From the NCBI RefSeq assembly GCF_021028975.2, contig NC_059427.1, positions 81,530,001 through 81,594,000 on the forward strand: a DNA stretch of 64,000 bases. Reading direction: 5' to 3'. The position numbers and the translations under genes are program-made. This document shows positions 13,646 through 63,120 of this stretch, piece by piece. The notes beneath the pieces are model-generated. The model had not been told where the DNA came from, made no database searches, and saw only the letters and a list, made by a program, of their open reading frames with translations. This stretch comes from Sphaerodactylus townsendi. Its lineage: Eukaryota. How positions within the stretch are numbered: position 1 is the stretch's first letter; each line of letters opens with the position of its first letter.

Positions 13646-14500
13646 AGTTTTAGAAGTAGTAAGTTAAAGAGAAAAGGGATCTATAACGAGGTATTTTCCA
13701 GGCTTACAGAGAATGGCTCTGGACAAAGTACCTGAGTACTCTGTTTTGGTAGACTCATCTGTAAAATGGATCTGAAGAGAATCCCGATACTCTTTGACAT
13801 TTTTGGGACAATGTGCTATGTGAGAAGTATGTGTAGCAGTAGTAGTAGTGATAAGAGGTGGCCATGGTAGTTGTTACGTTGAATTGCCATAAAAATATGT
13901 TCCACATTTGGTTTGTCTCTGTCAGAAGTTCTTCTTCATATCAACAAATTTTAGATACTAGGTGCAATCCTGTGATTGCAGGTAGACTGCTGTTTTTAGG
14001 GGAAAGCCTTTAAATTGCTTATATAAGGGGGACTGTTTGTTCTTGCTGTCATTCATCTGGCAGGTCTTTAGAAGTAAGGTAAAATCCCCCTCAGCAATTC
14101 CTGGCAGAACTCTTATGGGTTGGCCTGGTCCCATCAGAACCTGTTTTTTGAAGAATGACATCCTGTACTGAAACATAGAGTAAAGATACCAGAGGTTGCT
14201 CAAATTAACTTCTTGCCAAGATCATTCAGAAACTTGCAGAGTAATTAAAATCCTTAAGCCAGATATCCAGTGACTTGTTTTCTGCAAACTATATGCTGTA
14301 TCTATTAATATCGTCTCAGAACTATATTCATCATGCCCCTGGAATTGGGCCAAAGATGCATCCTTCTTGTAGCCCCAGCCTGCTCAATTTTTCCATAGGG
14401 TATCTTTAAGAGGAATGAGATTGGCCTGGGGAAGGGATAAGCATGATTCTGAATTCAGTAATGTGTTCTTCCTTTCCTTTCTGTTTTTTGTGTGTTTCAG

Positions 14501-14543
14501 GGCGCGATCCTCACTACCATGCTTGCAACCCGCAATTTTTCTG
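14501..14543 (+). CDS. CAMK2A: CaMKII alpha calmodulin-binding exon (GAILTTMLATRNFS), Thr305/Thr306 at 14513-14518
   Basis: Long pyrimidine tract with tttcag| acceptor and TCTG|gtagg donor, 43 nt, phase 0/1. Confidence 0.97.
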
Positions 14544-15747
14544 GTAGGTAACACAATTCTGCCCAAGTTAAAATTGACTTACTGCTTTTTGGTTTGTTGG
14601 ATACTAATCTTATGTAGAATGATGTTGGACACTGAGAGAGAACTGTACTTTTCAGCTCTAAATGGAAACATTTGCAAGACAAGAATGACCATAGGACCTT
14701 GCACGTTTCTTGCAATATATGTACACATTTATAAAAGCTAGAAGAAATTCATTCTAAAATAAATTTAATTTTATCCCATACAGGCTTTGCATCTGCATTT
14801 CAGATCCAGGAAATGCAAAATGCAACTTTAGTATTGTTCATGAGTATTTCCTTAAACTGCCCTCCTGCCCCATGTTCATAGAATTGGAAGGGGCTAAACA
14901 GGCCATTATCCAATCCCATTCTCAATGCAGGATGAGCCTAAAGCATCCCAATTGCATCCTTTGCTACCAACAGTCACAGTCCCCTACTCTCATTATTATA
15001 AATATCTACCGTACATAAACACAGCTGTTGCTTTTTACCAGATACTGAGTAGTTAAAAGTATAGTGGCCACTGAATCATATGAGGGTGATATACAATGAG
15101 ATGAATACCCAGCATTCTTGGCTGTATATTTACTGAAGATCAGGATGTTTTATGGAAGAGTTCAATAACATTAGTTAGAAAGTTCCCTCCTAAAGAATAA
15201 GAAGTCTGGCTTTTCTGGCATACATTGGATTTTTATATTTGATCTTCACTGTAAATCTTTCAGTAGTGAAACTAGAGGCAGGCCACTGCCAAAAAAATAG
15301 AATTGACAAGCTGATGACCTACAAGGACTTGAAGGGGGCATTTTCCTCTTTCCCACTATTTCTTCTTTCCCCTTCCTCTCCCATTTCCCTGCTTCCATGT
15401 CTCCTTTCCACACAATAGCCAACCAACCTTTATCTGTCCCCCACCATCTTCAGCTTTCCCTCATACTCTCTCCTGATAACCTTTCCCTTGAAAAAGCCTG
15501 GCCCATTTGTTCAGTGCCAACTGTCAGGCTCAGCTGAGTTGCATAGTTCTGGCTGGACTGAGCCAAATTGCACACAGGAACACATGTGAGAACTTGTGTA
15601 GAGCAGCTTACCTTCCCCCATAACCCCTTTCCCACACTGTATCTGTTTCCCTGACAGCTCTCATATCCTCAACTTTCCCAGTTTTCTTCACTTCATCATA
15701 TCCACCAATCAGCCTATCTTTTATATTCCCTACATCTTCAACTATAA

Positions 15748-15890
15748 TTATTCTTTATTTATTCCTTTTATACCACATATAAACATGGTTTGGGTGAGAG
15801 TATGTGACTGGCCCAAGGTCACCCAATAAACCTCTACAGCAGATGGGGATACAAACCTGGGTCTCTGAACCCCTACACCACATTGGCTTT
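15748..15890 (-). mobile_element. Partial tRNA-derived SINE
   Basis: Contains the tgtgactggcccaaggtcaccca core shared with the other SINE copies. Confidence 0.55.
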
Positions 15891-18089
15891 CATGGCTAAT
15901 GTTGAACAGTAGCAAGCAGCCAGTCCTGGGTGAATCATGCAAGCTGCCTGGAGTTGCTGGGACCAGTGATTCCTCCTGCAACGATAGGATTGCTAGGCTC
16001 CCGCCAGGAGCTAGGAATCCCCTATTTTGGGGGCTCTACACCATCTAGCTGGCCAGCAGTAATCTTACTAGACTTAAAATGAGGCCGAGGTTCGACTCTG
16101 TTAGTGATGTTGTCATGTCAGCAACATCACGGGAGACATTTTGGTATTTGGGCAAAATTCTACAGTAAAAACAGCCTCTATTATAGAGTTTTTGCTCAAA
16201 TATCAGAACATTGCCTTTTACATTGCCACTTCTGGAAGTGATATAGTCACATAAACACTGGCCTCCCCCTGTAGATGACAAGTTCCCCCTACCCCTGCTG
16301 GTTGCCAGGGGTGACCTGTCAGCCCTACTCAAAGGTCAAAGCAGGTCTGGGAAAAGGCACTGCCCCTTCCCCCTTCTTTTTACTGAAATAAAAATGGCTT
16401 GGCAATACGTCACTGAGGGCATTCATTTCTTAAATCTGCTTATATCATGTATTGGGATAACTTCACAGTGTAATATTACTGCAGTGTTATATATTTCAGA
16501 TTTTTCTGCAAAAAAGGAAGTTGTGTAGGAAGATCTGACTTGTGTGTCCATGACCCTAATCTTTGGATTTCAATATCCATAGATAGGATCATGTCAAGAA
16601 TTAGCTGTATTGATTACGATATATAGCTGTGTTCTAGTTTTCAGTCTACTACTCAATTTATCCTGATTCGACACAATACCAAAAATATAAAACACATCGT
16701 AGTAACACATTATCTCAAATAGGGCTCAGGTTATTTAATATGTGAACAATTGTCAAATGCAGCACAATAGATGCATTGCAGGCATGTTAAGGTTTTTCCT
16801 CATTCATGCTAAATTATTTGATTACAATTTTTTTATATTAAATAATCTTCTCAACTTTTCACCAACCAAACCCTGTACATGTTAATGGATTCCATACATG
16901 AACCATTCAAATGACCAGCTGTCTACTTCCAAATTTGGACTTCAGTCCTGTCGTCCATTATGCATACTATAGTGCCATTTACTTAAAGCTATACAACTAA
17001 GCCAGATGCAATGTTGGTGCCAAAATTATAAAGCAATTTAGTTCTATATTATTTTAAAAATGGTAATATATAAAAACTCTAAAACAAGCCCCATTCATTT
17101 ATGTGGGATTCAGGTCAGTTTCACCCAATTATTGTTTCCACATAATTGATCTCAGTTTCACTGGGTATTTTAGACTAGCAATGTGTAGGTCAATACATGG
17201 TAGATGATAAACATGGGAAGGAGGATGTGGCCATTTCATGTTACATTATCAATCCCTGAATTCTGACTTAAATGTATAGTGGCCAGACAGAGATAGCATA
17301 TAATTTATTTCCAAGATTTCATGTGGATGGTATAGAAGGAATGCTACAAGTAGTAGGCATTCCTTGTGAGTCATACATTCTCTAGTTCTGGGAAGAGTGA
17401 CTAAGGAATGTTTGCTTCTGAAATAGAAAGATACGTAATTTAAAAAAAAGATACTATTAAAATGTTTCTCAGAACCTCACACTCTGGGGTTTAGTTTTTG
17501 TCAGACAATACCCAACAAGCTTTCCTGCAAGCCTGTTCAGTCTCCTTCCTAGTTGCATATAATGGGTGACAGGGTGCTGCCTGCCCCTGTGTATTATATG
17601 TGTTTCAGTGTAAATAAAACAATATGTTAGATGCTTAGACAACGAGGCTGTGTTGTTTGGTAACCATGGTGGATGTATGCTAGAAGGCTGCTAGGAAGTT
17701 TTTGTTTTTAAAGAGAGTTAAGACAATTAATTGGCCTACTATTCTTAGTGTGGCAAGGGCTTGCTACTACCAGCAACAGCAAGGAAATTTAAATTGTCAT
17801 CCTTAATTGGTGTTCTGTTCTCTACCTCCTGAGAAGTTTGGAGGCTTTTCCTGACTAGAGAATTGATTGTTACAGATAATTGGATTAGCTGGTTCTGCCT
17901 AGAAGCTGTACTTGGGCCATGTGTGCTTGTGCCACCTGCCTTTACTTGTTCAAAATCTATTTGAAGGCAGTAGTACGAAGAGAGAGGGAGTATGAGAGGG
18001 TTGCAATCCCAGGAAACTAGGCTAGGTCTGGGATAGTGATAGTGGAGGCATAGAGATGGGATGTCTGCTTTTCATCATTGTCAAAATGT

Positions 18090-18160
18090 GGGCTGCAGCT
18101 GTCAGGATGTCATAATTGTAGCACATGACTCCTGCCAACAGGGGGTCTAAAATTAGCGAG
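18090..18160 (+). promoter_or_regulatory. Candidate muscle promoter/enhancer module for alphaKAP: E-box gCAGCTGtc (18096-18101) and MEF2 site CTAAAATTAG (18147-18156)
   Basis: Exact matches to the myogenic E-box and to YTA(A/T)4TAR, about 50 bp apart and ~0.5 kb upstream of the alphaKAP ATG. A further CACCTG lies at 17933-17938. Confidence 0.5.
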
Positions 18161-18617
18161 AGAGGCTGAGTGTGCAGAAGGCAGACAGGCAATTGCACGC
18201 CGCTCTTGCCTACAGTCAGACCCTTAGCATTTATACCACAGGCCACAAAGCAGGATAGGCAAAGGGGGACCATAGGGCAGAACCAGCAATGTAGCTGAAA
18301 CATTCTGGAATTTTATCAGCAAGAATATACATTGTCAGAGAATGCTTCTTCAGCTTCCTTCTCTTTCCATTGCCGGACATTACTTTGGATTTTTCAAAGA
18401 CTTGGGTGTACAAGAGTATAAGTGGCTGTGGCTTTTCTTATCCATGTTGGAAGATCCAAGTAAGAAAACTCCAATTTTTGAGCTTCAGAGGCCTTTGAGA
18501 GAGACTTCACACAGACCACTGGATTGTAAAGTGAATTCACGGCCTATAGAGGAGGGAGCAGTGTTGAATCTCTGATCATCAATTCCTGTCTTCTGCTTCT
18601 CTTGACCAATTTCCCTC

Positions 18618-18731
18618 ATGTTGCTGGTTCTTACCTTACTGACTCTGGTACCTTGCTTGGTCATCTTGACATGGTACTTTGTCTCCACAGGAGGGAAAAG
18701 TGGCGGCAACAAGAAGAATGATGGTGTGAAG
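18618..18731 (+). CDS. CAMK2A: alpha-KAP alternative first coding exon (MLLVLTLLTLVPCLVILTWYFVST-GGKSGGNKKNDGVK)
   Basis: ATG at 18618 with an in-frame upstream TGA at 18603-18605, reading in frame into the linker exon. The hydrophobic 24-aa leader resembles the mammalian alphaKAP N-terminus (MLL..L..LVPCLV.LT.YF.ST, from recall). Confidence 0.88.
18691..18731 (+). CDS. CAMK2A: CaMKII alpha linker exon (GGKSGGNKKNDGVK)
   Basis: ccacag| acceptor and AAG|gtaagt donor, 41 nt, phase 1/0. Confidence 0.96.
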
Positions 18732-19432
18732 GTAAGTCCCCCTCACTCCTGGCTACTAGATTGCCTGCCTTCAGGGTGGCAGGTTTGGCTTGATAGAGGG
18801 TCCCAGCGTGGCCCCGAGCCTTTTATTAAAGCCACATTATTAATGTTACATTGGTGGATCAACTGCTTTCCGTCTTAAGAAGCACTTCCCTACTGTCTGC
18901 ACTTTCTGCAAGTCAGCAGAAGCGCAAATATAAGCATTACTTTTATCTAGGTACAAACTACTGTGTTAAAAGGAAGTAATGGATATGCTGGTTTGTGAAT
19001 GATTTATTTGGTTTCTTCATATTGCAAAATGAAAAACAAAAAAAAGTAAAAAGGACAGTTCTGGAGAACTTAACCAGGGTTTGATATGTACTTTGTGAAT
19101 CATGGGTATATTGTAAGAATCCTCCCAACAACTCCATCCTACCGATTGTTCAGTACGAAGAAGAAATGAGAATTCTGTTTGGCCTATTTGTAGGCCAAAG
19201 TGCTACAGCTCTCCTGTGTGACTGTAAACCACAGTACTCTTGTGGTGTGATTTCACTGTCCTCCATTAGGAGTGCCTTACTTTAAAATCCAAGGAGACTA
19301 TCTTCTGATGGATTCTCTTCCTATTTGGGGTCATAGTCAAGCAGATATCCCTTCCATATGCATTCTGAGGTGGTATAGTCTTGCGAAAGAATTGTACCAC
19401 ATGCCCCTCTGATAATTTTAATAGACTTAAGG

Positions 19433-23934: not shown

Positions 23935-23967
23935 AAAAGAAAGTCCAGTTCCAGCGTTCAGTTAATG
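23935..23967 (+). CDS. CAMK2A: Alternatively spliced 33-nt alphaB cassette exon (KRKSSSSVQLM), completes the KKRK nuclear localisation signal
   Basis: Pyrimidine tract of more than 60 nt with ccag| acceptor and ATG|gtgag donor, phase 0/0. The peptide matches the known alphaB insert. Confidence 0.95.
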
Positions 23968-25048: not shown

Positions 25049-25097
25049 GAATCGTCAGAGAGCACAAACACTACCATTGAAGATGAAGACACCAAAG
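25049..25097 (+). CDS. CAMK2A: CaMKII alpha linker exon (ESSESTNTTIEDEDTK)
   Basis: ttcag| acceptor and AAAG|gtatag donor, 49 nt, phase 0/1. Confidence 0.96.
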
Positions 25098-29659: not shown

Positions 29660-31850
29660 CTACCCCAGGTTGGCATGGTAGGGTCTTTTTTATATTAAAA
29701 AAGGTAAGAAAGAAGACCCTCAAATTACAGGCCCATCAGCTTGCTGAGTATTATCAGTAAGCTCTATGCCAAGCATTACTTGAAAAACTTGAAAATTGGA
29801 CAGAGCAGGAGGGCATATTAATGAAGGAGCAGGCAAGCTTTAGGTCAGTGCTAGACCATTTCCTGATCCTACAGTACCTCATCGAGAAATATATGTCTAA
29901 GTGCCTTCACCGTATGCTGTCTTGGTTGATTTAAAGACCCCATTTGCCTTAATTTCAAGACCCAGACTGTGGAACAAATGAGAAGAGATCACCACTTTTA
30001 CTCATCCTAGCACTCTATGATCAAACAGCCCTAAGAATTCACTGTCGTAGACAAAGTCACCCTACTGAGCCAATTAAAGCCTTTCAAGGTGTCAGGCAGG
30101 AATGTCTATTAGCTCCCCTGTTGTTTATCTTTTATATAAATAACCTGGTAACTTGCCTTAATGACCATGAGTTCCACTCCACAAAACTTGATCACTGGCA
30201 TATGTCAATTCTATTATATGCAGATGATGTAGTCATCCTTTCAAGGCCCCTAATAGGACTGAAAAGAGCTCTATTCAGGCTAGCCTTATACTGTGAAAAG
30301 TAACATCTGACCGTCAATTATCAAAAAACCGAAGTGCTGGCCTTTGGAAATAAGTGAAAATCCAGAGTCTGGAAATTGAACAGAAATAGGCTGGAACAAG
30401 CGAACAGCTTTAAATATTTGGGGGTAGTTCTTTAACCCTCCAGCTCAAATATAGTCCACAGTAGCCACATGGAACTGAGAGATAGATCAGCCTTTAACAT
30501 AATTAAATTTCTTCTATCCAAAGGAGGGCACTTTACTCCAGCAGCCCTCAAATTGCTTACGGCGAAGATGCTGGCATAAATACTACATGGATCTCATCTT
30601 GGACTTCTTTCCTCACATTTTACTGTGCTAAAGAAAATTCAGTCTAAGTTTTTAAGAGGGACCTCGTAAATTGCTATCTGCATACCAAACTCTGTGACTT
30701 GAGATGGGTATGATGAAGGTGGAGGCCAGGGTAAGTTTATCATCAATTTACATGTGACTGAAGGCCAGCTTAAAATCTCAGGGCCTGTTTCCCCTGATTA
30801 TTCAGGACAAATTCCAATCCAAATGACTCAAAGCAGGAGGCCAGCTGTGGCACCACAGTTGCACCTCCCCACCGCTCCCATAGAAGCTTCCTAACATTGT
30901 GGGAAGCTTGCAAAGCGAAAAAGCCTCCCTGCCACCAAGAAGCCTCAATAGACTTACACTATTTGGTGGTGCTTAAGTTTAAAGTACTGGCATAAGGCAG
31001 CAAATGGCTGAGAGGGAGCCAACTTATGTCTCTCCCGGCCATGCCCTGGCCCACCCCTGCTATGCTGGCAGCAGTGGCAGGAGTGCTGGGATGCTGGTGT
31101 GGTGTTCAAATGGCGGGGAAGGCTGTAGTAGGTGAACACCGGCAGATTCATCCCTCCTCCAGGGCAAGTACTTCCCCTTTTGGATGGGGCCATATGTCTG
31201 TTTGATTTATTAAATTTCTGTCCATACCCCCTTCTGCAATTGCATTTGGAGCAAGCAAAACAGCTCGTCAGACAAAGATTAGAAGACACAAAATGTCAAA
31301 TGGACACCCTAAGAACACCTGATTTTAAGTTCTTAGCTGAAGCCAGGTACATTCTTGCCCCGCCAAGAATCATCACTGGAAATCAGCAACTACAGAAGGC
31401 AGGCCAGAGCAAGGGGGAACTGCTCTCGGGGCACACGTGCGCCCTGAGCCCCTGCCCTGCCCTGGAATGCCCCCTCTCCGGTGTGTGCCTGGTGCATCAC
31501 ATGCCTCCCCCGTCCCCTTGGCGCTACACCACTGACAGAAGGGCATTCACCCTGGCTAGATGCTCAGCATTCCCCTCAACAATTTTAGAAGGCAAATTCA
31601 AGAAAATCTCCACTGTAGAAAGATTATGTCCATTCTAAACAGGGGAACTGGAACTGAAGAGGCATGTGTTCTTCAGTTGCATACATTTTAACAAGGCACA
31701 ATCAAAGTTTATCCAATTCTTGAAAAGTTCCCAAGCCAGTCAGAGAAAGCAAGGTGTGACTGGCGTCTTTCTGATTAGAACTCCCAATTCTCAAGCTAAG
31801 TTGCAAAGTTCTGCCTACTAGTTGGTAAGGCCCACAGTTTGCAAGTCTCA
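29660..31850 (+). mobile_element. Degenerate non-LTR retrotransposon ORF2 (RT plus C-terminal Cys/His motif), RTE-X-like, with internal MITE insertions
   Basis: KKGKKEDP..YRPISLLS, GVRQ.CLLAPLLF, LLYADDVV, SFKYLG and RRAFTLARC...ERLCP motifs, with frameshifts and stops. Confidence 0.8.
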
Positions 31851-33370: not shown

Positions 33371-33446
33371 TACGAAAACAGGAAATAATTAAGGTGACGG
33401 AGCAGCTGATCGAAGCAATAAGCAATGGGGATTTTGAGTCCTACAC
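33371..33446 (+). CDS. CAMK2A: CaMKII alpha association (hub) domain exon ((V)[24 protein letters not shown](T))
   Basis: caacag| acceptor and AC|gtgagt donor, 76 nt, phase 1/2. Confidence 0.97.
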
Positions 33447-38261: not shown

Positions 38262-38579
<318 letters not shown>

Positions 38580-39212: not shown

Positions 39213-39470
<258 letters not shown>

Positions 39471-41629
39471 TGAGTCATTTCTATGCCACAGCAGCAAATC
39501 CTGTCATCCAACAAGGAGCCATCTTTTGTCATCCCAGTGGAAATGAAGTATTTAGTTCTACAGTGTAAACAAGCCTATGACCCATTCTTATTTGTGCACA
39601 GCATGTCCTCAAAAATTTCAGATCAACACAAACAATGCAAAACTGTTGATTGTTGACCAGCATCACTTTCTCCCCTGGCAGCCATGAGACCCCGAACATA
39701 GCAATGTTGTGGAGAAGATATAATTCCTGCTGGGCAGAGGTGTGGTGAGGGAGGGCGAGCGGGGACAAGCCGTGGGCTCCACTCCTGGAAGTAATGTGAG
39801 GGGTGCATTCGGCCAATCCCCCCCCCCCCCCGAACTCAGAGTTGGGGCCACCGCCACTAGACTGGGCAACCTGTTTGCAAAGTTCAAAGCACGGCGAGGG
39901 CATGGTACAGCGCAGCCGGGAGCCTCCACAGTGGCCCAGTCTCCCAGCCCTTACCTCTCCTCTCTTGGTCACCTGTTTGCACCTGGCAGGAGAGAGAGCC
40001 CTGTGGGCATGCCTGCAGCAAGGCCATAGCAAGACCAGGAGCACCCACAGCAGCAATCCTGCCCCCCCACCCTCCTTATGCACCTCAGCTGCTGCCATCA
40101 GAGCCAGGAAAGTGAGCTGGTCCTAGTCTGAGGGAGCAGCCAGTAAAAGGGCAAGGAGGGCTTCTGGCAGGGCATTTATCCTGCTCTTAGAGAGAGCTAA
40201 GAGACACAAATGATCTCACTCTCTCCTTGACCCAATAATCTTTGTAGAGGTTGGGTTTAAGTTCTCCCATTATAGTTCCCTCCCCAAGGATGGGACTTTC
40301 TGTTTGCAGGGAGGCAAGTACATTTGCTTCTGTGACTTTGGGACGAAGCCTTGTCATGGAATGAATACTGTCAATACGGGAGGCATAATATCCGGTTTGC
40401 GAGTGCATCCTTGCCTCCTTCTCCTTAATTCCACACACAGCAATTGGTTGCACCCTTCTGCTTTTTCTGAAATCTAGTGAAACAGGTTCTAGTTGTGCTA
40501 CTATACACTATGCTTGGTGATTGTGACCAAAGTTTTTTCTGGGTGCTGGCACAGATTATTATCTGCATGTTGCTTCAGCAGCATGCATGAATATTTATTA
40601 AATCCGTAGTAAAAGAGGTCAAAGTTCTAAAGTCATATTTGTTAAGAAAGTTTTGGAGTTGCTGAAGTACCTTCTCTACTTTAATATGTGCTGCACTAGT
40701 TAAACTTGGAGGTTATGTGTTTTTCTGTTCTGCTGAGTTGGAGATGGTTCAGAGGTTTTATTGTTTCTTGGTTGTGGTTGTTGTTTTAGAATTGCATCTT
40801 CTTTTCACTTTTTGTGCTTTTAGTTTCTATTTCTAAACCCAGGACTAGTGATTCTAAACAGCTCAGTTGCTGTTCTTCGCCTTATTAATATCAGGAAGGC
40901 TGGAAGAGATGCTTGTTCTCACAAGCCTCTCTAAGTCAGTCTCGTATCTCCTTCCTTAGGACATTTGTGACCAAGGTAGAGCATCTGTTTTTTATTGAGT
41001 AGGCCCACCATCTCTTTTTTAATCTTCCAGCACCTCACAATGTGGCCCTCAAAAATAAAAGTTGTTATATGTGTTAAAAGGTGGCTGAAAGTAAAAAACA
41101 TCAAAAGTTTATTTTGCCCTGAATGCTCAGGTACTGTGAAGAGTGCTTGTGCCAAGTTTTAAAAGATGTTTTGGCCTGTCATGTGTTGGCCCGCAATACA
41201 ACAGTTAGATTTGAGTATGATAGCAACTTAGACAAGATTTCCAGAGATATGAGTATAGCTCAAAAACTACAATTTATCAGCAAAACTTTCCACATTGTAA
41301 TATTTCCAGTAGCCTGATGATGAACTTGGCACTCTTAACTGAAACATAATGGAATTTAAAATGATTTCCATAAGGATGCCAGGGATTTAACGTAGGGACC
41401 TTCTGCATGCCCACAGTGTCTGTCTGTCTGCTGTCTGACTGACCTCCCTCCCAGCTAGGGTGGCTTGGTGCTCTCCAGACTCCACTGCCCCACTATAGAG
41501 GCCATGCTAGGGCAGCAGAGTCTGGGTGGGTGGGTGCTATTTCAGTGCTTGCCCTAAGCATCGTTTTCTGTAGCTATGCTCCTGCCACTGGAAGGAGGAT
41601 CAAAAGCAAGAAACAAACTGGGACTTATA

Positions 41630-41872
41630 GGCCCTTTCCCCACTTCAAAAGTGAAAGTGGAGGGGACCCCTGCTCCGTGTTTGGCGCGCGGTTTCAAAAA
41701 GGTGTACCGACCAGGATCCGAAATGACGTGTGCTGAGGGGTGGGAGGAGCGGCAGAATCGGGGTGACTGCGTTGTCACTGCGTTGTCACTGCTGGTGTAG
41801 TGGGGAGTGCTGCAGGACTCCGGGGTATTTGCCGTGAGGAGTGCGCATCTAATGGTGGGTGGGGAATCGACC
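41630..41872. mobile_element. Harbinger/PIF-like MITE with 3-bp TSD (ATA) in the last intron
   Basis: GGCCCTTTCCCCAC...GTGGGGAATCGACC, flanked by ata on both sides. CpG-rich. Confidence 0.75.
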
Positions 41873-42092
41873 ATAGACAAAGCAGGATTTGTTACTTACA
41901 TCTGTAGACTCATCAACACTGGCCAAAAAGTTATAGTTGAAAGAAACCAAAGCTTAAGACAAGGTCTGAATCAGGTCATTAGGTGATAATCATCAGCCCT
42001 TTCACAAGTAGAATACAAGATGGCTAAGGAGAACCAGCTACAAAGAGCACCATTTTAGTACAGTACACGCCATTTTTCTTTATGTTTTTCAG

Positions 42093-42096
42093 CTGA
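42093..42096 (+). CDS. CAMK2A: Coding part of the terminal exon (C + TGA: completes the His codon, then stop)
   Basis: catttttctttatgtttttcag|CTGA. CA+C gives His and the known ...SVLPH* C-terminus. Confidence 0.85.
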
Positions 42097-60789: not shown

Positions 60790-63120
60790 GTCTGGTGCTT
60801 ATGCTTGTGAATTCCAGGTTGGTCCAAAATAAATCTGTCCTCATCCAGGACTTGCTCCAGGACTTGATCCTGGATGAGGGGCCAACTTGGTGTGCACCAC
60901 AGAGACCTGGGTGGGTGAGATGGGGCCCCTGATCCTTACCCAGCTTTGCCCCCGGGTTACTGTGTGCAACACCAGGTTGGTGGGGAGGAGTGGGGTGGGG
61001 GAGTGGCTTTGGTCTGTAGAGATTCCATCACTCTCACCAAACAACCCTTTCACCTTGTGGCTGTTGCAGAGCGTTTGTTCTTGATGCTTGATCAGAGACA
61101 CAAGTTGGGACTGCTGCTGGTGTGCCGTTCACCCCACTGCCCTACTGCCTCCCTGCATGAGCTGGAGGAGGCAGTCTCAGGGGTGGTGTTGGAGGCTCCC
61201 AGTACAGTGATTCTGGGAGGTTTCAATTTCCATGTCGAAGATGCCTCTGATGGTCCAACTCAGGACCTCATGGCTGCCATGGCAACCATGGGGCTCTCAG
61301 TTTGTTTCTGGCTTAACACACTCAGCTGGACGTGTTCTCGACCTGATCTTTCCAACAAGGCAAATTGGAGATAATCCATTCATCAAGGACTCAAGATCTG
61401 TCCCTTTTTATAGATAGATCATAACCTAGTGAAGTTTGGGCTTCAGATGTCACTCCCCCACTGCAGGGATGGGGGACTGATTAAGATGGTCCACCCCTTG
61501 AGGAGTATGAAATCGCAAGGATTCCTGAAAGTTCTAGGGATTTTCCTGGTGACATGGCTGGCACTTCTGTTGAGGCCCTGATCTCCCTTTGAAATGGTGA
61601 GGTCAGGAGGGCAATCAACATGATTGATCCTAACCACCTTGTCCCGCTGGTAGAGCCTTTTGGGCCCATGGTATACTGGGGATTTGAAGTCAATGAAGCA
61701 GAAGGGGCGATGGCTTGAGCACAGATGGTGGAAATCGCCATGTGGATCTGACTCTACACCAAGTGGTGGTGGCAGTAGCGGCAAAGAGGTTGTATTTCTC
61801 CACTCTCATTGTGTCCACAAGTAGCCATTTAGCAGAGTTATTTAGGGTGGTTAATGGCTTGTGTCCTCCTCTTGGAAGACTGGGGCCAGGGTGCCCCCTG
61901 GTATCTGAGGTGATTATTTGCTGTGTGCTTTCAAGATAAAGCTCAGATCCACACAGGATTGGACTCTACCTTTGAACAGATTCCTGTGGAAGTGTCCAGA
62001 CCACTACGTAGCCCAGTTTTATTGGATCAATTTCAGTTCTTGAGGTCAGAGGATGTGGACAAGTTGCTTGCGGGGATGTGACCTACTACTAGTCCCCTGG
62101 ACCTTTGTCCATCCTGTCTAATAAAAGTTAGCTGTGGGAGAAGGGGGGTTCAGGAGGTACTAAATGTCTCTTTGATTGAAGGGGCCAGCACTTCTGAAAG
62201 AGGAGTTGGTCTGCCCCATTTTGAGGGGGCCTTCTTTGGACCCTATGGTGCTGGGTAATTATCACCCAACATTCCATTTTGGGGAAGGTTCTGGAGACGG
62301 TGGTTGCAGCTCAACTGCAAGCTTACTTGGAAAAAACTGGTCAATCTGGTTTCAGGCATAGTTATGGCACAGAAATGTCCTTTACTGGGGAAATACTGGG
62401 GAAATACTACCCTGTTGATTCTCCTTGATCTCTCAGTAACTTTTGATACCATGGTATTTTGCTGAACTGGCTCCAGGGAATGAGGTATGGGGACACTGTG
62501 TTACAGTGGTTCTCTTCCTACCTTCAGGGTTGGTTCCAGAAGACTCATGTTCACAGTGCTGGGAGCTCCCTTGTGGGGTTCCCATCATTTGATCCTGTCC
62601 CTTACACTGTTCAACATCTATATGAAGCTGCTGGGTGAAGTCATCTTGGGATTTGGAGTCAAGTGTCATTAACATGCCAGGAGAGGTTTCCATGTGCTGA
62701 ACTCTTGCCTGGAAGCAATTATGGGCTCAATGAGGACCAACAAACTGAGGCTGAATCCAAACAAGACAGAGGTTCTCTGTATTCTGGGCTCCCAAGACTG
62801 CAGGATAATGGGGCATCCAACACTGGATGGGGTTGTATTGCCCCAAAAGAACTGGGGGTGCTCCTGAATTCATCACTGTCCTTTAAGCTGCAGGTGACAG
62901 TAATGGCCACAAGGGCCTTCCACCAGTTCCGTCTGGTTCACCAGCTCCGCCCATTTTTGCACAAAGGGGACCTGGCAGTGTTACACATTCTGGGTTACTG
63001 GCAGTAGCAGTGTTACACATTCTGGGTTACCCAATTGGGTTACTGTAATGCGCTCTACGTGAGGCTGCCCTTCAAGATGGTCCAGAAGCGGGAGTTGGTA
63101 TAGGCATTAGCCAATATCTC
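60790..63120 (+). mobile_element. Degenerate L2-type LINE ORF2 (APE endonuclease plus RT)
   Basis: LVN.R...NK, TETW, GGGVAL, ILG.FN.H, LILLDLS..FDT and LFNIYM..L motifs, with many frameshifts. Confidence 0.85.

What the first reader, a model, noticed from the sequence alone, without database searches (positions are those of the whole stretch)
18618..18731. Intact alphaKAP in a reptile: one DNA stretch is both a splice acceptor and a membrane-anchor coding sequence
Seen: the 73 nt before the linker exon, which form the branch and polypyrimidine region for the kinase mRNA, are an open frame from ATG 18618 encoding MLLVLTLLTLVPCLVILTWYFVST in frame with GGKSGG. Joining the downstream exons gives a kinase-less protein of 199 aa (with the NLS exon) or 188 aa, with an anchor plus hub. 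Established: mammalian alphaKAP co-assembles with CaMKII holoenzymes and tethers them to sarcoplasmic reticulum. Inference: the gene-within-a-gene predates the mammal/reptile split and automated annotation could easily miss it.
Basis: partly seen in the sequence, partly recalled or inferred. Interest (0 to 1): 0.7.

Follow-up and report, generated by a model that had tools for sequence, protein, structure and literature searches.

The report
Reptile alphaKAP, a known CaMKII anchor
In this likely reptile's CAMK2A kinase gene, RNA covers an intron end that is the kinase's working splice acceptor and also reads as a hydrophobic peptide, so it likely makes alphaKAP, the kinase-less membrane tether already on record in mouse, birds and zebrafish: real, but ordinary.

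Summary
ATG 18618 opens 24 uncharged, hydrophobic codons in frame with the CAMK2A linker exon (18691-18731); joined exons give 199 or 188 aa. RNA supports both uses of this DNA: kinase reads splice into the AG at 18689-90 (5 and 7 reads in two runs), and reads cover about 18212-18690 while ten intron bins upstream are empty; one run has leader cover but no kinase exon. MEF2, E-box and CArG motifs lie just upstream. The leader is kept in 63 distinct variants from mammals to teleosts; three paralogs lack it. But this is known: alphaKAP arises from an alternative promoter (PMC5882894), and RefSeq holds mouse, zebrafish and bird versions, plus two squamate-type UniRef entries 95-96% identical to this protein. 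So it predates the fish/tetrapod split, and annotation often catches it. Only the last 20-50 nt likely carry splice signals. Two small open points: a 77-codon upstream ORF in the same frame, which runs through into alphaKAP in three relatives, and a possible de novo origin of the anchor from the polypyrimidine tract.

The parts
14501..14543 (+). CAMK2A regulatory-segment exon (GAILT...), whose donor splices to 18691 in the kinase mRNA
   Evidence: joint seen in 5 reads (X5), 7 reads (X6) and one contig (X4)
17801..17810 (.). CArG-box match, candidate muscle promoter element
   Evidence: 6 in the window, 8.5 expected by shuffling; function inferred
18072..18125 (.). Conserved non-coding block with an E-box at 18096-18101
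   Evidence: 17 of 18 codons identical in the read-through ORF of relative P0064; E-box
18147..18156 (.). MEF2 consensus match about 60 nt before the start of RNA cover
   Evidence: 18 matches in the window; function inferred
18212..18731 (+). alphaKAP alternative first exon; 5' end approximate
   Evidence: X4 contig spans 18212-18719 with no other letters; raw reads of X5-X7 cover it; upstream intron bins empty. Libraries unstranded, so strand is inferred
18342..18575 (+). 77-codon upstream ORF in the alphaKAP frame (second ATG at 18444); a Met-stop at 18289
   Evidence: same 77-aa ORF in P0258; open into alphaKAP in P0002, P0004, P0064; no coding-like substitution pattern
18618..18690 (+). 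Dual-use 73 nt: codes the 24-residue hydrophobic leader and is the 3' end of the kinase intron 14544-18690
   Evidence: acceptor use and read cover
18691..18731 (+). Linker exon shared by kinase and alphaKAP
   Evidence: 8 reads of X6 continue from its end into the exon at 25049
23935..23967 (+). Optional 11-codon NLS exon (alphaB type)
   Evidence: inclusion not tested with reads
25049..25097 (+). Linker/hub exon (ESSES...)
33371..33446 (+). Hub exon
38321..38415 (+). Hub exon
39241..39469 (+). Hub exon, Pfam CaMKII_AD PF08332
   Evidence: E 1.6e-33
42093..42096 (+). Candidate start of the last exon (completes His, then stop)
   Evidence: best pyrimidine tract of 17 candidates; not read-tested

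Best explanation
This is the reptile ortholog of alphaKAP: a likely muscle-type promoter inside the CAMK2A intron likely starts an mRNA near 18212, whose ATG 18618 would give a 24-residue hydrophobic leader plus linker and hub, predicted to anchor in the ER/sarcoplasmic-reticulum membrane and tether active CaMKII subunits there. Shown here: the frame, the exon chain, use of the acceptor by kinase transcripts, RNA over the leader without the kinase exon, and conservation of the leader. Inferred: the start site and strand, muscle expression, translation from 18618, an uncleaved anchor with the hub in the cytosol (no charge before the hydrophobic stretch, four Lys and one Asp in the 14 residues after it; positive-inside rule, recalled), and co-assembly with kinase subunits through the hub (from mammalian work). 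The same 73 nt can serve both jobs because T-rich, AG-free sequence suits both a 3' splice site and hydrophobic codons, and because the two transcripts use it separately.
For: Frame and exon chain. Product 180/187 identical to P0093, 177/187 to P0046, 176/188 to mouse RefSeq isoform 3, 145/188 to zebrafish isoform 4. RNA run X7: depth 11.4, 7.1 and 5.0 in the three bins 18241-18690, 0 on the kinase exon bin, 0 kinase joints; ten intron bins 16591-18090 and bin 18841-18990 are 0 in all 4 runs. Read variants in the leader are one synonymous and one Val-to-Phe change. 63 distinct leaders, this one included, 24-29 aa, KD 19-mer 2.18-3.01, at most one charged residue. Neutral simulation keeps Met, open frame, no charge and KD >= 2 in 3.3% at 27% divergence and 0.3% at 45%. 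MEF2, CArG and E-box lie together within 450 bp in 2 of 1271 overlapping windows, both here. Alternative-promoter origin, SR targeting and co-assembly stated in passages of PMC5882894, PMC9913510, PMC6288437.
Against: Read depth is low (41-67 reads laid per run), libraries are unstranded and tissues unknown; the raw reads come from a second organism label with 7 differences in 18209-18681, and X4 is not on record as RNA. No listed joint ties a leader read directly to a downstream exon, and X7 depth in bin 18691-18840 is only 0.25 (the tool warns that dips can come from its read filter). ATG 18618 has a weak context and three ATGs precede it. Homolog leaders were found by similarity and filtered for a Met, so broken ones could not appear. 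Leader identity is not above the 5' UTR background in the two ungapped pairs (22/24 against 19.5 expected, P 0.14; 13/24 against 12.8, P 0.56). The promoter-motif cluster was noticed after the fact. No protein evidence.
Confidence: 0.85

Rival explanations
1. The protein is made, but the leader is a cleaved signal peptide, so the product is a soluble or nuclear hub subunit and not a permanent membrane anchor.
For: RefSeq names the mouse and zebrafish isoforms 'precursor'; small residues (Ser, Thr, Gly, Gly) follow the hydrophobic stretch; an NLS exon is available.
Against: No basic N-region, and a net +3 flank after the hydrophobic stretch favours hub-in-cytosol orientation (rule recalled). 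Reviews state that membrane targeting dominates in mammals (passages of PMC6288437, PMC9913510).
Confidence: 0.07
2. The RNA is made, but ribosomes mostly start at the upstream ATG 18342 and stop at 18573, so little alphaKAP is translated in this species.
For: ATG 18342 has A at -3 whereas ATG 18618 has C; the upstream ORF is 77 codons; read depth does not rise downstream of it, so no later main start is evident; the same ORF and stop are in P0258.
Against: The leader is intact and conserved in squamate-type relatives; leaky scanning or a later start near the TATA-like motif at 18417 would bypass it; the upstream ORF shows no coding-like substitutions.
Confidence: 0.05
3. The leader frame is a by-product of a T-rich splice acceptor, and the reads come from retained intron, nascent or antisense RNA.
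For: Acceptors read as hydrophobic by default: the NLS-exon acceptor scores KD 2.07 with no charge, and gene models P0069 and P0087 start in that tract. Libraries are unstranded.
Against: Cover is confined to about 520 nt with empty intron on both sides, and X7 has no kinase-exon cover; 0 of 13 control acceptors show the full pattern; spliced leader-plus-hub proteins exist from mouse to zebrafish.
Confidence: 0.03

Closest known systems
alphaKAP (CAMK2A kinase-less isoform; mouse RefSeq NP_001273738.1, P0043)
   Same: Met-hydrophobic leader directly before the linker, same hub, optional NLS exon, 176/188 identical; arises from an alternative promoter (passage of PMC5882894).
   Different: Leader is 24 rather than 25 residues; here the 5' leader holds a 77-codon upstream ORF; no protein or localisation data for this species.
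Squamate-type UniRef entries A0A670IGQ0 (P0093) and A0A670Z8Y5 (P0046)
   Same: 24-residue leader, 96.3% and 94.7% identical overall, no gaps: already annotated as association-domain-only proteins.
   Different: Species names were cut off in the output; that they are a wall lizard and a snake is recalled from the accession series, not shown by a call.
Zebrafish camk2a isoforms 3 and 4 (NP_001410639.1, NP_001410640.1)
   Same: Hydrophobic leader plus linker plus hub, no kinase domain.
   Different: 26-residue leader of diverged sequence; 77% identical overall. That Francescatto et al. 2010 studied zebrafish alphaKAP is recalled; only its title was seen in reference lists.
Hybrid first-internal exons (Fiszbein and colleagues)
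   Same: One exon is internal in one transcript and first in another; about 80,000 in human data (abstract of PMC11797052).
   Different: Most affect untranslated regions (passage of bioRxiv 2021.05.27.446076); here the upstream part codes a conserved targeting peptide and the start lies about 480 nt before the 3' splice site.

Membership tests
alphaKAP | Encoded within CAMK2A, not a paralog | tested here: met
   Linker matches CaMKII alpha; three other hub loci carry the AAKSLL linker.
alphaKAP | N-terminal hydrophobic leader from the intron, in frame with the linker exon | tested here: met
alphaKAP | Complete association (hub) domain, no kinase or regulatory segment | tested here: met
   Exon chain open, ungapped against P0093 and P0046; PF08332.
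alphaKAP | Own transcript from an intronic promoter | tested here: met
   Cover of 18212-18690 with empty intron upstream; run X7 lacks the kinase exon. Strand and exact start not shown.
alphaKAP | Optional 11-residue NLS exon | tested here: inconclusive
   Exon intact with AG/GT; 8 reads of X6 skip it but may be kinase mRNA; inclusion not tested.
alphaKAP | Expression mainly in muscle | tested here: inconclusive
   Tissues of the runs are not given; MEF2, E-box and CArG motifs upstream are only suggestive.
alphaKAP | Membrane anchoring and co-assembly with CaMKII holoenzymes | not testable with these tools
   Inferred from mammalian work (passages).
Hybrid first-internal exon | Same exon internal in one transcript and first in another | tested here: met
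   Joint into 18691 in X5, X6, X4 and upstream cover without it in X7.

The most novel reading that the evidence does not exclude
alphaKAP's membrane anchor was born de novo from the polypyrimidine tract of the CAMK2A linker-exon acceptor, after the four CaMKII genes split and before bony fish and tetrapods parted, and has stayed dual-use since. In squamates its translation is gated by a conserved upstream ATG that is a closed 77-codon ORF in some lineages (this one, P0258) and an in-frame 78-92-residue N-terminal extension in others (P0002, P0004, P0064). Basis: paralogs lack the leader, ordinary acceptors already read hydrophobic, no shark leader protein appeared among the best 120 of 553 hits (inconclusive). 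Against: loss in the paralogs is not excluded, and the upstream frame evolves like non-coding DNA.
Probability: 0.3. Interest if true: 0.4.

Novelty: already known. Interest (0 to 1): 0.12.

Why it matters
As found, it adds one more species to a known system and shows RNA support for it in a reptile. It is a clean teaching case of one DNA stretch serving as splice acceptor and coding sequence, and a reminder that CAMK2A reads in muscle RNA-seq can be alphaKAP, not kinase (as a passage of PMC8155201 notes for mouse). If the de novo origin held, it would be an old vertebrate example of a membrane domain arising from T-rich sequence, a process described for young yeast genes (PMC7005711, seen as search listing only).

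Tried and rejected
No listed holder of the stretch is on record as RNA; this says nothing either way, and the raw reads added by species label were laid instead. Upstream frame as conserved coding sequence: rejected for now; mean BLOSUM62 of differences -1.06 and -0.82 against neutral -0.62 and -0.79, P 0.85 and 0.54 (only the 2 ungapped of 3 pairs were tested). Second copy of the leader in the genome: only a chance-level match, E 4.7. Paralog leaders: absent in 3 of 3; the fourth pattern match (L001) is not a CaMKII exon. Shark or ray alphaKAP: all 94 newly listed proteins carry a kinase domain, only 120 of 553 hits were shown, and clustering can hide members: no verdict; my script's filter for this matched the wrong motif and was not used. 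The last exon of P0093 was not found in the window. No Pfam family for the leader or the upstream ORF. No relatives' genomes are held, so no DNA-level dN/dS. The primary alphaKAP papers and the zebrafish paper are not held. Searches listed no paper on reptile alphaKAP or its evolution; the library lacks most subscription journals, so this is weak. No supplements were opened. Structure and complex prediction were not run: a hub-hub pair would pass by likeness to solved structures.

Full report
Observation. The sequence is as described. ATG 18618 opens a frame of 24 uncharged, mostly hydrophobic codons that runs into the 41-nt linker exon 18691-18731; the acceptor AG (18689-18690) lies inside codons 24-25 and the donor GT follows at 18732. 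The gene is CAMK2A: kinase exons lie upstream at 1455, 6118, 7781, 9708 and 14501, the linker matches CaMKII alpha chains in the PDB, and the genome's three other hub loci carry the beta/gamma/delta-type linker. Downstream exons join without a stop to 198 or 187 full codons plus two bases; a final codon and stop give 199 or 188 aa. That the host is a squamate is inferred from 96.3% and 94.7% identity to two UniRef entries whose species I recall but could not see.

Is it more than chance? Acceptors tend to read hydrophobic: the NLS-exon acceptor reaches KD 2.07 with no charge. But 0 of 13 control acceptors (10 in this gene, 3 paralog linkers) combine Met, open frame and KD >= 2, whereas this one scores 2.49 and has a 127-nt AG-free zone against 21-84 nt (hydropathy values recalled). 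Searches gave 41 hits for the leader plus linker and 43 for the first 60 residues of P0046. With cluster members these hold 63 distinct leaders, this one included, all 24-29 residues, KD 2.18-3.01, at most one charge. This set is biased, since broken leaders would not be found. In a neutral simulation the pattern survives in 3.3% of runs at 27% divergence and 0.3% at 45%. Against this, plain identity of the leader is no higher than that of the translated 5' leader in two relatives: the constraint is on hydrophobicity, not on exact residues.

RNA. Four runs were laid on 14491-18990. The kinase joint, skipping intron 14544-18690, is in 5 reads of X5, 7 of X6, 0 of X7 and one X4 contig, so the acceptor works. 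Reads also cover about 18212-18690 in all three raw-read runs; X7 has depth 11.4, 7.1 and 5.0 over the three bins 18241-18690 and none on the kinase exon. Ten intron bins (16591-18090) and the bin after 18841 are empty in all four runs, which argues against retained intron or DNA. An X4 contig spans 18212-18719 exactly. Eight X6 reads continue from the donor into the exon at 25049. Limits: 41-67 reads per run from 6-24% of each run, unstranded libraries, unknown tissues, a second organism label with 7 differences in the exon (in the leader: one synonymous, one Val to Phe), X4 not on record as RNA, and no listed joint that ties a leader read to a downstream exon.

Promoter and 5' leader. A MEF2 match (18147), E-boxes (17933, 18096) and a CArG match (17801) lie just upstream of the RNA start; all three kinds fall within 450 bp in 2 of 1271 overlapping windows, both at this place (noticed after the fact). 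A block around the E-box is 17 of 18 codons identical in a relative's read-through ORF. The 5' leader holds three ATGs: a Met-stop at 18289 and a 77-codon ORF from 18342 (second ATG 18444) in the alphaKAP frame, ending at 18573; ATG 18618 has a weak context. P0258 has the same 77-residue ORF (5 hits, 2 clearly related), while in P0002, P0004 and P0064 the frame runs into alphaKAP; P0003 and P0005 start at the alphaKAP Met. Substitutions in this frame look neutral, so a conserved protein extension is not supported; a regulatory role is open.

Mechanism. Kinase transcripts start far upstream and splice into 18691, using at most the last 20-50 nt of the leader as branch point and pyrimidine tract (candidates at 18669 and 18642; not mapped). 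alphaKAP transcripts likely start inside the intron in muscle and read the same bases as codons. The product has no charge before the hydrophobic stretch and a net +3 flank after it, which predicts an uncleaved anchor with the hub in the cytosol (rule recalled). The hub would co-assemble with active CaMKII and hold it at the sarcoplasmic reticulum, as stated for mammals (passages of PMC5882894, PMC9913510, PMC6288437); a role in acetylcholine-receptor stability is also reported (passages of PMC4033055, PMC7916148). Rivals: a cleaved signal peptide (0.07), translation largely blocked by the upstream ORF (0.05), a by-product of the acceptor (0.03).

Comparison with what is known. alphaKAP and its alternative-promoter origin date from 1996 (cited in PMC5882894; the primary papers are not held). 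RefSeq has the mouse isoform (NP_001273738.1), curated zebrafish isoforms (NP_001410639.1, NP_001410640.1), predicted bird and teleost isoforms, and UniRef has two squamate-type entries; unnamed spliced proteins of likely amphibian type also appear (P0054, P0055). The exon type is a hybrid first-internal exon, a common class (abstract of PMC11797052; passages of bioRxiv 2021.05.27.446076, which does not mention CAMK2A). Eight searches listed no paper on reptile alphaKAP. An earlier unreviewed note of this scan on another lizard reached the same verdict; it is not independent support.

Verdict. Real, expressed, already known. Interest 0.12. The boldest reading left is a de novo birth of the anchor from the splice acceptor, with upstream-ORF gating in squamates (probability 0.3, interest 0.4); the shark search gave no verdict.

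Noticed in passing
Some mammal-type and amphibian-type ORFs (P0019, P0048, P0054, P0096) also have in-frame upstream Met codons.
   Followed up: partly
window 17801-18156: Cluster of CArG, E-box and MEF2 matches with a conserved block at 18072-18125: candidate muscle promoter of alphaKAP.
   Followed up: partly
window, acceptor before the NLS exon at 23935: The pyrimidine tract reads almost the same in bird (P0069) and sturgeon (P0087) gene models as here, so it is deeply conserved; those models likely start in it by mistake.
   Followed up: no
window 39469-42096: The last hub exon ends within a codon; read-through gives Gln-stop and a candidate exon at 42093 gives His-stop. Both endings occur among database proteins.
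   Followed up: partly
window 15787-15944: Short repeat-like piece in the intron that draws reads and contigs with loose ends on both sides in all runs; likely a dispersed repeat.
   Followed up: no
window 29953-31638, 60919-61374, 62639-63007: Open frames that look like broken reverse-transcriptase or endonuclease pieces of LINE-type elements (resemblance recalled, not tested).
   Followed up: no
whole window: MEF2 consensus matches number 18 against 8.0 expected from dinucleotide shuffles (0 of 100 shuffles reach 18), probably from A/T-rich patches, which weakens any single match.
   Followed up: no
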